Source of the DNA: Chlamydiales bacterium
GTDB taxonomy: Bacteria > Chlamydiota > Chlamydiia > Chlamydiales > JBDQID01
Assembly: GCA_047611865.1 (NCBI GenBank)
Contig: JBLFWS010000085.1
Span: forward strand, 1-14,071
Direction of reading: 5' to 3'
DNA: 14,071 nt
Under the pieces are notes generated by a model, which saw only the letters and a program-made list of their open reading frames with translations, made no database searches and was not told where the DNA came from. The position numbers and the translations under genes are program-made. Below are positions 8,212 through 9,012 of this stretch, piece by piece. Every line of letters begins with the position of its first letter. Positions within the stretch are counted from its first letter, which is position 1.

Positions 8212-9012
8212 TTAGAAGGAGAAGCCCATTAATTCGTTTACTGCGCCGGATAGTTCGGGTCCGAAGAGGCTTCCGAAGGTACCCATTTCGCCTGTCCTGA
8301 TAACCTCTGCGGAGCGTTGTTTGCTTATGGCGACGGTCCTTGCGAAGTCGCTCTCTCTCTCGAAGCGATTTTGGTTGGATCCGTTTGTTACTCTTTCTTT
8401 CATAAGGCTTGTCTGTGCTGTTTCTGCGCTTGCGATGGCGGCATCTGCTCCGGCTTGTGTGGAGATGTCGAAGGAGGCGAAGTCGCTGTTAACTTGTGTC
8501 AGGTCTGCATCGGTGGTGGTGATACTCCCTTCACCGGTAAATGTTGAGGTAGATGAACCTTGTAGTATTGGTGTGCTGTTAAATGTCGTTCTGCTTTGCA
8601 TGTCTGAGAGTTCTTGCTTTAGCGCCTGTGCTTCTGCGTTGAGGCCGGCGCGGTCTCCGTCATTAAGTGTGCTGTCGGAAGATCGGATTGCGAGCTCTCC
8701 CAATCTGTTGGTGATGTCGCTGGCGTTTTGTAGGGCGGCATCTGCTGTGGCGGATTTTATTGCGCCAAATTCTGCATTCTGGGCGCCGATATTATTTCTG
8801 GTGGCGGCAGAGTCTAGACTATCCGCAATGGCTAAGATGGAGGGGCTTGGTCTACGTGTTCTTCCGGGGTTGGAGCTAGCTATTTGTTGGAGTAATTTTG
8901 CGTTCAGATCATTGGATAGCAGGTCGCCGGGTCTGTTGCCTTTCTTTTGCTTTTTCATTACCATACTGAATAGGGATGCCTTCCTTTGAGAACCGATAGG
9001 GCTGATAGCCAT
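8212..9012 (-). CDS. Atypical flagellin-like protein (conserved D1 helices, diverged D0 termini, essentially no D2/D3)
   Basis: LAIADSL...NAEFGAIKSATADAALQNASDITNRLGELAIRSSDSTLNDGDRAGLNAEAQALKQELSDMQSRTTFNSTPILQG matches the Flagellin_N consensus. ISTQAGADAAIASAETAQTSLMKERVTNGSNQNRFE matches the C-terminal D1 helix (canonically ...RAxLGAxQNRLE). GGAGG lies 5 nt upstream of the ATG. Confidence 0.85.
   Translation of the reverse strand: MAISPIGSQRKASLFSMVMKKQKKGNRPGDLLSNDLNAKLLQQIASSNPGRTRRPSPSILAIADSLDSAATRNNIGAQNAEFGAIKSATADAALQNASDITNRLGELAIRSSDSTLNDGDRAGLNAEAQALKQELSDMQSRTTFNSTPILQGSSTSTFTGEGSITTTDADLTQVNSDFASFDISTQAGADAAIASAETAQTSLMKERVTNGSNQNRFERESDFARTVAISKQRSAEVIRTGEMGTFGSLFGPELSGAVNELMGFSF

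What the first reader, a model, noticed from the sequence alone, without database searches (positions are those of the whole stretch)
8212..9012. Flagellin homologue with intact D1 but remodelled D0 termini: possible non-filament flagellin
Seen: both D1 helices align well to the flagellin consensus with only a very short linker. The N-terminus (MAISPIGSQRKASLFSMVMKKQKKG...) lacks the canonical INTN motif and keeps only a trace of xLSSGxRIN (QQIASSNPGRTR). After the IRDAD-equivalent (IRTGE), the final D0 helix (...QILxQA...AQANQ.PQ.VL.LL) is replaced by a shorter GTFGSLFGPELSGAVNELMGFSF. The TLR5-contact motif QRxRELAV reads NRLGELAI. Established: D0 forms the filament core and carries the FliS-binding and NAIP5-sensed C-terminus, and flagellar genes have been reported in some marine chlamydiae. 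Inference: this may be a minor, non-polymerising or repurposed T3SS-exported flagellin, such as an effector, decoy or regulator. No other flagellar structural gene is in the window.
Basis: partly seen in the sequence, partly recalled or inferred. Interest (0 to 1): 0.8.

Follow-up and report, generated by a model that had tools for sequence, protein, structure and literature searches.

The report
Chlamydial flagellin paralogue with remodelled ends
An uncultured, flagellated relative of Chlamydia carries a small, well-conserved extra flagellin whose core domain is intact, but the two ends that normally build the filament's inner tube are replaced by family-specific segments, so it probably does something other than form the ordinary filament.

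Summary
Window 8212..9012 (-) is a real, monocistronic 266-aa gene. It has a strong ribosome-binding site and a terminator-like hairpin.

- **D1 is intact.** Pfam sees only Flagellin_N, profile positions 41-139, and no Flagellin_C. The AlphaFold model matches filament flagellins at Z about 20, rmsd 1.6-1.9 A, over residues 53-240 only.
- **The termini are remodelled.** Compared with the genome's own small flagellins, the N-terminus is about 14 residues longer and split by a basic loop. The C-terminal D0 is 13 residues shorter and Gly-rich.
- **The gene is not decaying.** I found 17 full-length relatives of 265-269 aa, down to 35% identity. The odd C-tail is as conserved as D1.
- **The host is a chlamydial MAG** with a full flagellar gene set, at least 8 canonical flagellins, FliS, FliW, CsrA, FliD and 10 Maf paralogues.
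- **The family forms its own branch.** It groups with other atypical chlamydial flagellin-like proteins and sits apart from the canonical ones.

Function is inferred, not shown. My best reading is a flagellum-linked, non-canonical, probably exported flagellin, comparable to FlaC. I rate it a new variant of a known kind, of moderate interest.

The parts
8212..9012 (-). Gene for the 266-aa flagellin-like protein (P0001), stop codon included
   Evidence: ORF and translation; PF00669 at E 7.5e-13; 17 full-length orthologues.
8845..9012 (-). Residues 1-56: remodelled N-terminal region. Helix 8-20, a basic Gly/Pro loop (KKQKKGNRPG, 20-29), helix 28-46, then a basic spoke (RTRRPSP).
   Evidence: Not covered by PF00669. 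Only residues from about 34-38 onward align to canonical flagellins. Model pLDDT is 58-83. The region is conserved within the family at 0.28-0.35 mean pairwise identity.
8293..8844 (-). Residues 57-240: intact flagellin D1 (ND1 helices, beta-hairpin, CD1 helix)
   Evidence: pLDDT 89-96. Z 18-20 and rmsd 1.6-1.9 A over 182-189 residues against filament flagellins. hhalign probability 99.9.
8458..8556 (-). Residues 153-185: Ser/Thr-rich beta-hairpin (GSSTSTFTGEGSITTTDADL), which replaces D2/D3. It is a candidate O-glycosylation surface; this is inference.
   Evidence: Strands 154-158 and 163-167 in the model. The segment is conserved in the family. The own canonical small flagellins are not S/T-rich here.
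8215..8292 (-). Residues 241-266: shortened, Gly-rich C-terminal tail ([LM]GxxGS[LI]FGxxLxxxVxELxGFxF) in place of the C-D0 helix
   Evidence: 13 residues shorter than in the own small flagellins. It is the most conserved region together with ND1 (0.51-0.53 mean pairwise identity). It is unique in the genome. pLDDT is 61-80 with 16 sequences.
9017..9022 (-). Shine-Dalgarno GGAGGA, 4 nt before the ATG
   Evidence: Read directly from the sequence.
9052..9058 (-). CCGAAAA, a weak sigma-28-type -10-like element 46 nt upstream of the ATG
   Evidence: Regex scan. Other flagellin genes of the genome carry CCGATA[ACT]. About 5% chance expectation in 200 nt by my own estimate, so this is only a lead.
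8137..8174 (-). Terminator-like G+C hairpin followed by U9, 38 nt after the stop
   Evidence: RNA fold, z = -2.0 for the 120-nt stretch. The promoter/terminator scan did not list it.
6062..7573 (+). Convergent neighbour: Maf/MptE-like protein (503 aa), last gene of a sulfotransferase-GT9-Maf operon (4186..7573). It is a possible modifier, but the adjacency is not conserved.
   Evidence: PF01973 at E 7.2e-24; NCBIfam PseD domain 44 bits against a cut-off of 670. In G006 the orthologue is followed by OppA-type genes instead.

Best explanation
The gene encodes a member of a small, conserved family (here 'T1') of flagellin paralogues found in flagellated environmental chlamydiae.

Structure. The D1 domain is a normal flagellin D1. 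D2/D3 are reduced to a Ser/Thr-rich hairpin. The two terminal segments that in filament flagellins form the long D0 coiled coil are replaced. D0 normally forms the inner tube, is the FliS-binding site and is the polymerisation interface. Here the N-terminal helix is split by a basic loop and extended by about 14 residues. The C-terminal helix is cut by 13 residues to a conserved Gly-rich tail.

Most likely mechanism (inferred). The protein is made together with the flagellum and leaves the cell through the flagellar type III export gate by means of its flagellin-like N-terminus. Because it cannot build a canonical D0 inner tube, it is not a bulk filament subunit. It would act as a released or accessory flagellin-like protein, as Campylobacter FlaC does. 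The conserved tail would serve as a family-specific docking site in place of the canonical FliS site. The neighbouring Maf-type enzyme may glycosylate its exposed Ser/Thr hairpin.

Shown: gene reality, fold, remodelled termini, conservation, restriction to flagellated genomes. Inferred: export, lack of polymerisation, glycosylation, role.
For: - Fold and termini. PF00669 covers only profile positions 41-139, and there is no PF00700 hit. hhalign aligns only columns 39-245 to canonical small flagellins. D1 superposes at Z about 20 and rmsd 1.6-1.9 A, but including the termini raises rmsd to 6.1-6.6 A. The model shows short helices 8-20, 28-46 and 255-261 instead of two long D0 helices.
- Selection. 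16 aligned relatives of 265-269 aa have tail identity of 0.51-0.53, equal to ND1. G006 against L101 gives dN 0.52 and dS 1.96.
- Not needed as the filament protein. The same genome has 4 tandem 608-aa flagellins, one of 581 aa and three of 264 aa. All carry PF00669 from position 1-13 and PF00700 to position 86. It also has FlgK, FlgL, FliW, FliS, FliD and CsrA.
- Separate lineage. T1 (16 rows, SH-aLRT 100) groups with other atypical chlamydial flagellin-like proteins (33 rows, 98). The canonical own flagellins form another group (11 rows, 99).
- Link to flagella. Any relative was found in only 10 of 200 genomes of the order, and all 10 also have large flagellins. Full-length T1 was found only in G000 and G006, and in 1 of 400 genomes of the phylum sample.
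- Precedent. FlaC is a D0-D1-only flagellin that is secreted and not assembled (PMC4863622, abstract and section 6; PMC5466977, passages). Deleting the last 10 residues of FlaA abolishes FliS binding (PMC5466977).
Against: - There is no direct evidence of expression, export or failure to polymerise.
- FlaC, the precedent, keeps a canonical D0, so a remodelled D0 is not needed for a secreted role. It could equally block FliS-dependent export.
- The model still places helix 28-46 and the tail roughly where D0 lies (225 residues align at rmsd about 6 A), so a shortened D0 stub that still co-assembles is not excluded.
- The Maf adjacency is not conserved in the only relative with context (G006). 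In the window the two genes are separated by dispersed repeats.
- The sigma-28-like element is a one-mismatch 7-mer.
- dS is saturated for the window's own comparisons.
Confidence: 0.45

Rival explanations
1. It is a specialised minor filament subunit. It would co-assemble through its intact D1 at a defined place, for example at the hook-proximal or distal end, as a filament terminator, or as a lattice modifier among the large propeller-bearing flagellins.
For: D1, which carries most lateral and axial contacts, is fully conserved. The genome already uses many flagellins. The +14 and -13 residue changes leave the total length like that of the small flagellins (266 against 264 aa), so the extra N-helix might substitute for the lost C-D0 turns. 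Relatives are restricted to flagellated genomes.
Against: I recall no known filament subunit that lacks a canonical C-D0. The Gly/Pro-rich tail is unlikely to form the inner-tube helix. The protein groups away from all canonical flagellins of the same genome. The sister family 'T3' (P0047) has almost no residues after the IR motif, which suggests the clade as a whole does not depend on D0.
Confidence: 0.2
2. It is a cytoplasmic regulator or decoy. This would be a flagellin mimic that titrates FliW, FliS or another flagellin-binding factor and so tunes CsrA-controlled flagellin translation or export order.
For: FliW, CsrA and FliS are all present. The large flagellins have long GGA-rich leaders, while this gene has a short leader. 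D1 and part of N-D0, where FliW binds in some species (PMC5466977), are kept.
Against: The conserved flagellin-like extreme N-terminus (MPxINPI in most relatives) looks like an export substrate. I recall no precedent for a flagellin-derived intracellular regulator.
Confidence: 0.12
3. It is a substrate of the chlamydial non-flagellar type III secretion system, that is, a flagellin-derived effector delivered to the host cell.
For: The genome encodes CesT-type chaperones, two of them close to other flagellin-like genes (C35, C122). The termini are family-specific.
Against: There is no chaperone gene next to this gene. Relatives were not found in 190 of 200 genomes of the order, the ones that also lack flagellins. 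I recall that chlamydiae generally carry the injectisome; I did not test that here.
Confidence: 0.1
4. It is a decaying flagellin pseudogene, or an ordinary flagellin whose ends merely look odd because chlamydial flagellins are divergent.
For: A second atypical paralogue in the same genome (C10) is frameshifted.
Against: There are 17 intact relatives of nearly identical length with conserved odd termini. The eight other flagellins of the same genome have canonical ends by Pfam.
Confidence: 0.03

Closest known systems
FlaC of Campylobacter jejuni and other Campylobacterales, a secreted non-filament flagellin (PMC4863622; PMC5466977)
   Same: It is a small flagellin paralogue (D0-D1 size class, no D2/D3) encoded away from the main flagellin genes in a bacterium with glycosylated multi-flagellin filaments. 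It is conserved across species and is not the filament protein.
   Different: FlaC keeps canonical N- and C-terminal D0 and binds FliS through it (PMC5466977, passages). The protein here has a split, extended N-terminus and a truncated Gly-rich C-terminus. Orthology to FlaC was not tested; the only pointer is an Atlas feature hit to a Campylobacterota cluster, which is a lead.
Canonical short filament flagellins, e.g. Kurthia 6t17, Roseburia 9hpz, Caulobacter FljK, and the genome's own 264-aa flagellins
   Same: Same D1 fold (Z 18-20, rmsd 1.6-2.1 A), same overall length, and a beta-hairpin in place of the outer domains.
   Different: There is no PF00700 match, and the termini are not alignable. 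It sits on a separate branch of the tree.
Sphingomonas sp. A1 cell-surface flagellin homologues (PDB 3k8v, 3k8w, 2zbi)
   Same: A flagellin homologue described by its depositors as a 'bacterial cell-surface flagellin'. D1 superposes at Z 19.0-19.3.
   Different: Those proteins have outer domains (chains of 296-323 residues). That they keep D0 is my recollection. No sequence-level kinship beyond the flagellin family was shown.
FlgL (hook-filament junction protein, HAP3)
   Same: A flagellin-related helical axial protein. There is a weak NCBIfam TIGR02550 hit (28 bits).
   Different: The score is far below the cut-off of 127.2. The genome has its own FlgL (316 aa) next to FlgK, and that FlgL lies outside the T1/T2 group in the tree.

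Membership tests
Bacterial flagellin (FliC/FlaA type filament subunit; Pfam PF00669 + PF00700) | N-terminal helical region (PF00669) above the gathering score | tested here: met
   49.2 bits against a cut-off of 26.6, but only profile positions 41-139 of 139 are matched. 16 of 16 family members match.
Bacterial flagellin (FliC/FlaA type filament subunit; Pfam PF00669 + PF00700) | C-terminal helical region (PF00700), including the C-D0 helix | tested here: not met
   No hit for P0001 at E <= 10. 6 of 16 relatives give weak hits, best E 5.5e-4. No PF00700 match on contig C85 in the six-frame genome search at E <= 1. The tail is 13 residues shorter than in the own small flagellins.
Bacterial flagellin (FliC/FlaA type filament subunit; Pfam PF00669 + PF00700) | D1 fold | tested here: met
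   Z 18-20, rmsd 1.6-1.9 A, 182-189 residues aligned to filament flagellins. Foldseek probability 1.00.
Bacterial flagellin (FliC/FlaA type filament subunit; Pfam PF00669 + PF00700) | Canonical N-terminal D0 (MxxINTN start, continuous helix, LSSGxRIN) | tested here: not met
   The first 38 columns are not aligned by hhalign. The PDB profile alignment starts at query 33-34 = chain 18-19. The model has two short helices separated by a basic loop.
Bacterial flagellin (FliC/FlaA type filament subunit; Pfam PF00669 + PF00700) | Polymerises into the flagellar filament | not testable with these tools
FlaC-type secreted flagellin | Lacks D2/D3 and is not the only flagellin | tested here: met
   A 33-residue hairpin lies between the D1 helices. 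There are at least 8 canonical flagellins in the genome.
FlaC-type secreted flagellin | Canonical D0 termini retained and bound by FliS | tested here: not met
   The termini are remodelled. FlaC carries D0-D1 and binds FliS (PMC5466977).
FlaC-type secreted flagellin | Sequence orthology to Campylobacterales FlaC | not tested
The only pointer is the Atlas feature hit.
FlaC-type secreted flagellin | Secreted through the flagellum and not assembled | not testable with these tools
   Experimental property.
FlgL / HAP3 | NCBIfam TIGR02550 above cut-off, and a gene next to flgK | tested here: not met
   28 bits against a cut-off of 127.2. The genome's FlgL sits beside FlgK on C21.

The most novel reading that the evidence does not exclude
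T1, with its sister groups T2 and T3, may be a previously undescribed class of flagellin-derived proteins in flagellated chlamydiae that have given up filament formation. In this reading they keep D1 as a scaffold and have evolved new terminal modules. The conserved Gly-rich tail would be a new docking signal. The proteins would be exported by the flagellar apparatus as glycosylated, released factors acting on the host or on the flagellum itself, for example as a filament-length terminator.
Probability: 0.3. Interest if true: 0.7.

Novelty: new variant of a known kind. Interest (0 to 1): 0.5.

Why it matters
Flagella in chlamydiae are known only from genomes, and nobody has seen one. This family shows that these flagellar systems are elaborate: many flagellins, ten Maf paralogues, and a separate lineage of flagellin-like proteins that keep D1 but have rebuilt or lost D0.

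If T1 is an exported non-filament flagellin, it would be a second, independent example after FlaC of the flagellum being used as a secretion device for a flagellin-derived factor. It would occur in a phylum that also owns an injectisome.

The conserved tail is a defined, testable motif for chaperone or export studies. If T1 instead co-assembles, it would be the first filament subunit I know of (from recall) with a shortened D0.

Tried and rejected
FliS, FliW, Maf binding and self-assembly are therefore untested.
- **Expression.** The look-up of sequencing runs listed no RNA holder. The six DNA runs are labelled ice metagenome, and three of them may be the source.
- **Read laying** on four runs gave only identical fragments and no variant letters, so it did not help a dN/dS estimate.
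- **Orthologue loci.**
  - The genome contigs pattern scan returned only ordinary flagellins at 30-47% identity over D1.
  - The metagenome scan gave one true orthologue, on a 1155-nt contig with no context.
  - The scan with A3 failed because the alignment was too divergent.
Their synteny may bear on the Maf link.
- **dN/dS.** dS was not computable for the window against G006 or L101 because it is saturated. No DNA was available for the close relatives P0002 and P0003.
- **RNA genes.** Rfam and tRNA scans of the window were empty.
- **Promoter.** The strict sigma-28 pattern TAAA-N14-17-CCGATA gave 0 matches in the window. The sigma-70-type hits near 9264-9355 are at chance level, 3 found against 3.0 expected.
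- **Motif reuse.** The tail motif has no second copy in the genome. The N-terminal profile hit only a 52-aa low-complexity ORF at E 0.007, which I rejected.
- **Spurious ORFs.** The 102-aa ORF at 7899..8207 was rejected as a gene because it lies in a dispersed repeat. The antisense 222-aa ORF at 8321..8989 is taken to be the shadow of the real gene; I ran no test on it.
- **Literature.**
  - Searches for flagellin + chlamydiae/Chlamydiota found no description of atypical chlamydial flagellins.
  - PMC5604735 has 0 occurrences of 'flagellin' in its main text. Its supplements were not read.
- **Earlier scan notes.** A look-up by sequence found nothing.

Full report
**The gene**

Window 8212..9012 on the minus strand is a 266-aa ORF.
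- GGAGGA lies 4 nt before the ATG.
- Upstream is a 482-nt AT-rich spacer, with the divergent HemL-like gene beyond it.
- About 38 nt after the stop there is a G+C hairpin followed by nine U.

It therefore looks like a self-contained, monocistronic gene. The 222-aa antisense ORF at 8321..8989 I take to be the shadow of the real gene; I ran no test on it. The 102-aa ORF at 7899..8207 lies inside a dispersed repeat and I do not count it as a gene.

**What the protein is**

Family scans:
- Pfam finds one family, Flagellin_N (E 7.5e-13). Residues 57-155 match profile positions 41-139 of 139, so the first 40 profile positions are missing.
- Flagellin_C is not found even at E <= 10.
- All 17 NCBIfam hits are flagellin, FlgL or flagellinolysin models far below their cut-offs. 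The best is 57 bits against a cut-off of 531.

Structure:
- With 16 sequences the AlphaFold model has mean pLDDT 87.3.
- Residues 57-240 (pLDDT 89-96) form the ND1 helices, a beta-hairpin at 154-167 and the long CD1 helix.
- The N-terminus forms two short helices (8-20 and 28-46, pLDDT 58-83).
- After residue 243 there is only a short turn and helix 255-261 (pLDDT 61-80).
- Against the PDB, residues 53-240 superpose on filament flagellins at Z 18-20 and rmsd 1.6-1.9 A over 182-189 residues. Alignments that include the termini reach 223-225 residues only at rmsd 6.1-6.6 A (Foldseek agrees).

Alignment of the termini:
- A profile of the family aligns to a 284-aa PDB flagellin at query 34-154 = chain 19-139, and query 182-245 = chain 187-250.
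- Profile-profile comparison with 16 canonical small flagellins covers only columns 39-245 (probability 99.9).
- P0001 residue 38 pairs with residue 24 of the genome's own 264-aa flagellin, and residue 244 pairs with residue 229.
- The N-terminus is therefore about 14 residues longer, with a basic Gly/Pro loop (KKQKKGNRPG) splitting it. The C-terminus is 13 residues shorter and Gly-rich.

**It is conserved, not decaying**

Relatives found:
- The word-indexed search found 7 relatives of 266-268 aa (46-87% identity), all with PF00669 only. The next six hits (277-286 aa, E 5e-6 to 4e-4) carry both flagellin domains (14 proteins at E <= 0.001 among 1736 candidates).
- The exhaustive representative search gave 19,478 proteins at E <= 0.001, but only 20 at E <= 1e-30. 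Nine full-length representatives (265-269 aa, 244-411 bits) are followed by a drop to 159 bits.
- Adding G006 and one metagenome contig (L101) brings the total to 17 full-length members besides the window.

Conservation:
- In the 16-row alignment A3 the mean pairwise identity is 0.35 for residues 1-33, 0.31 for 34-56, 0.52 for ND1, 0.48 for the hairpin, 0.42 for CD1 and 0.53 for the tail. Without the two near-copies the values are 0.35, 0.28, 0.50, 0.46, 0.41 and 0.51.
- G244, G247, G251, L254 and G263 are invariant or nearly so.
- The odd tail is thus under at least as much constraint as D1.
- dN/dS could be computed for only one pair, G006 against L101: dN 0.52, dS 1.96, ratio 0.27, with dS near saturation. 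For the window's own pairs dS was not computable.

**The host and its flagellar system**

- The window is contig C85 of a 3.59-Mb, 272-contig genome with 41.5% G+C and 95.5% estimated completeness.
- The window's HemL is 56-63% identical to those of Waddlia, Parachlamydiaceae and Chlamydiales records.
- Contig C21 carries the chlamydial UPF0242 family. The host is therefore a chlamydia.
- C21 also holds FlgF/G-type rod genes, FlgA, FlgH, FlgI, a rod-binding protein, FlgN, FlgK, FlgL and FliW. It has four tandem 608-aa flagellins and one of 581 aa.
- C268, C227 and C122 hold three 264-aa flagellins.
- All eight flagellins match PF00669 from profile position 1-13 and PF00700 to position 86 (six-frame counts).
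- Also present are FliS, FliD, CsrA, ten MptE/Maf paralogues, two NeuB genes next to Maf genes and two sigma-70-family factors (555 aa and 271 aa).
- Earlier notes of this scan on the same genome describe the large flagellins as propeller-bearing and their leaders as structured. I saw the genes and their conserved leaders but did not re-test those claims.

**Place among flagellins**

I built a quick maximum-likelihood tree with LG+G4, SH-aLRT support only and a midpoint root. It has 76 rows:
- 16 T1 rows;
- 13 second-tier hits, 'T2' (P0022-P0034);
- 1 'T3' row (P0047);
- 10 own-genome proteins;
- 6 proteins from other chlamydial genomes;
- 30 other hits, which were every third hit shorter than 300 aa among P0035-P0162.

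Longer hits and the fragment P0048 were left out.

Results:
- T1 is one side of a branch (support 100).
- T1 joins T2, T3 and the atypical proteins of G003, G023 and G040 (33 rows, support 98).
- The own canonical small and large flagellins form a different group (11 rows, support 99).
- The four T2/T3 proteins I scanned (4 of 14 such rows) have PF00669 only.
- T2 keeps a long but divergent C-terminal helix. T3 ends about 12 residues after the IR motif.

The group as a whole shows graded loss of canonical D0.

**Distribution**

- In a sample of 200 genomes of the order, 10 have any match at E <= 1e-5, and all 10 also have large flagellins.
- A full-length T1 occurs only in G000 and G006, which are in the same family.
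- In 400 genomes sampled across the phylum, full-length T1 was seen only in G000; G006 was not in that sample.
- One genome (G093) was not scored in either search.
- These are samples of related genomes and are not independent observations.
- Still, no relative was found in a genome without flagellins. That ties the family to the flagellum rather than to the injectisome.

**Context**

- Downstream and convergent lies a sulfotransferase-GT9-Maf operon at 4186..7573.
- The 638-nt spacer holds an inverted pair of a roughly 200-nt repeat that has copies on at least 15 other contigs.
- In G006 the orthologue is followed by two OppA-type genes and a DEAD-box helicase, and the contig starts 217 nt upstream of the gene.
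- The Maf adjacency is therefore not conserved where it can be checked.
- The Ser/Thr-rich hairpin (GSSTSTFTGEGSITTTD) is conserved in T1 and is not S/T-rich in the own small flagellins. Glycosylation is a reasonable guess, but only a guess.
- A CCGAAAA box 46 nt before the ATG resembles the CCGATA boxes upstream of other flagellin genes in the genome. G006 has GATAAAA at about the same distance. This is weak evidence: I estimate about 5% chance expectation per 200 nt.

**How it most likely works**

Established knowledge:
- D0 forms the filament's inner tube. C-D0 is the FliS site and is central to polymerisation (cited within PMC5466977).
- Removing the last 10 residues of C. jejuni FlaA abolishes FliS binding (same paper, passages read).
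- FlaC is a D0-D1 flagellin that is secreted and not assembled (PMC4863622, abstract and section 6; PMC5466977).

From this I infer that T1 cannot make a canonical D0 tube and is not a bulk filament subunit. Its conserved flagellin-like N-terminus (MPxINPI in most relatives) and its restriction to flagellated genomes suggest export by the flagellar apparatus. Its conserved tail suggests a specific partner.

I put about 0.45 on 'exported, non-filament accessory flagellin'. The rivals are:
- about 0.2 on a specialised co-assembling subunit;
- about 0.12 on a cytoplasmic regulator or decoy;
- about 0.1 on an injectisome substrate;
- about 0.03 on decay or an ordinary flagellin.

**Verdict**

I found no description of such chlamydial flagellin-like proteins in three full-text searches. 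PMC5604735 does not use the word 'flagellin' in its main text, and I did not read its supplements.

It is a new variant of a known kind, of moderate interest.

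Noticed in passing
window 7612-7811 and 7890-8087: An inverted pair of a roughly 200-nt dispersed repeat lies between the Maf gene and the flagellin-like gene. Copies at 82-96% identity occur on at least 15 other contigs of the genome (C244, C25, C18, C149, C30, C67, C58, C61, C177 and others). 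It looks like a MITE-like element. Read depth at 8050-8086 is about seven times that of the flanks in run X1.
   Followed up: partly
window 4186-7573 (+): A tightly spaced operon of sulfotransferase (PF13469), GT9 heptosyltransferase-like and Maf/MptE-like genes, with a further Glyco_trans_1_2 gene at 1896-3104 (-). Together with ten Maf paralogues and two NeuB genes in the genome, this suggests elaborate, possibly sulfated, flagellin glycosylation.
   Followed up: partly
G000:C10 about 3700-4425 (L087 1250-1998): A second atypical flagellin-like paralogue ('T3', relative P0047) is split by a frameshift. The N-terminal part (MPHISTIKNIVDNAF...) reads in one frame and the D1 part in another. 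This is either a pseudogene or an assembly error. Its intact relative P0047 has almost no residues after the IR motif.
   Followed up: partly
G000:C35 5706-9218 (L022): A CesT-type chaperone gene is followed by a 461-aa protein with Flagellin_N only and a 435-aa protein of no known family. The layout resembles a chaperone-substrate operon. Another CesT gene lies near the small flagellin on C122.
   Followed up: no
P0022-P0034; G028:C20, G040:C48, G023:C138, G003:C34: A second family ('T2') of 226-263-aa flagellin-like proteins occurs in other flagellated chlamydiae. The four T2/T3 proteins I scanned have PF00669 only, and the family has its own divergent termini. It is sister to the window's family in the tree.
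   Followed up: partly
G000:C21, upstream of the four tandem 608-aa flagellins: A conserved box, TTTTT(T)CT(T/C)(C/A)AGT...TTCCGATA(C/T), lies about 170 nt before each ATG. It is followed by a long GGA-rich leader that ends in GGAGGA. This fits sigma-28-type transcription plus CsrA/FliW control. The flagellin-like gene in the window has only a short leader.
   Followed up: partly
window 2-1162 (-): The Opp-type ABC permease ORF starts with about 70 residues of Ser/Leu/Pro-rich low-complexity sequence before the Pfam domains. The listed TTG start is probably too far upstream.
   Followed up: no
window 11778-13346 (-): A 522-aa protein has a weak acyl-CoA:6-APA acyltransferase (peptidase C45-like) domain and a probable N-terminal membrane segment. 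Its function is unclear.
   Followed up: no
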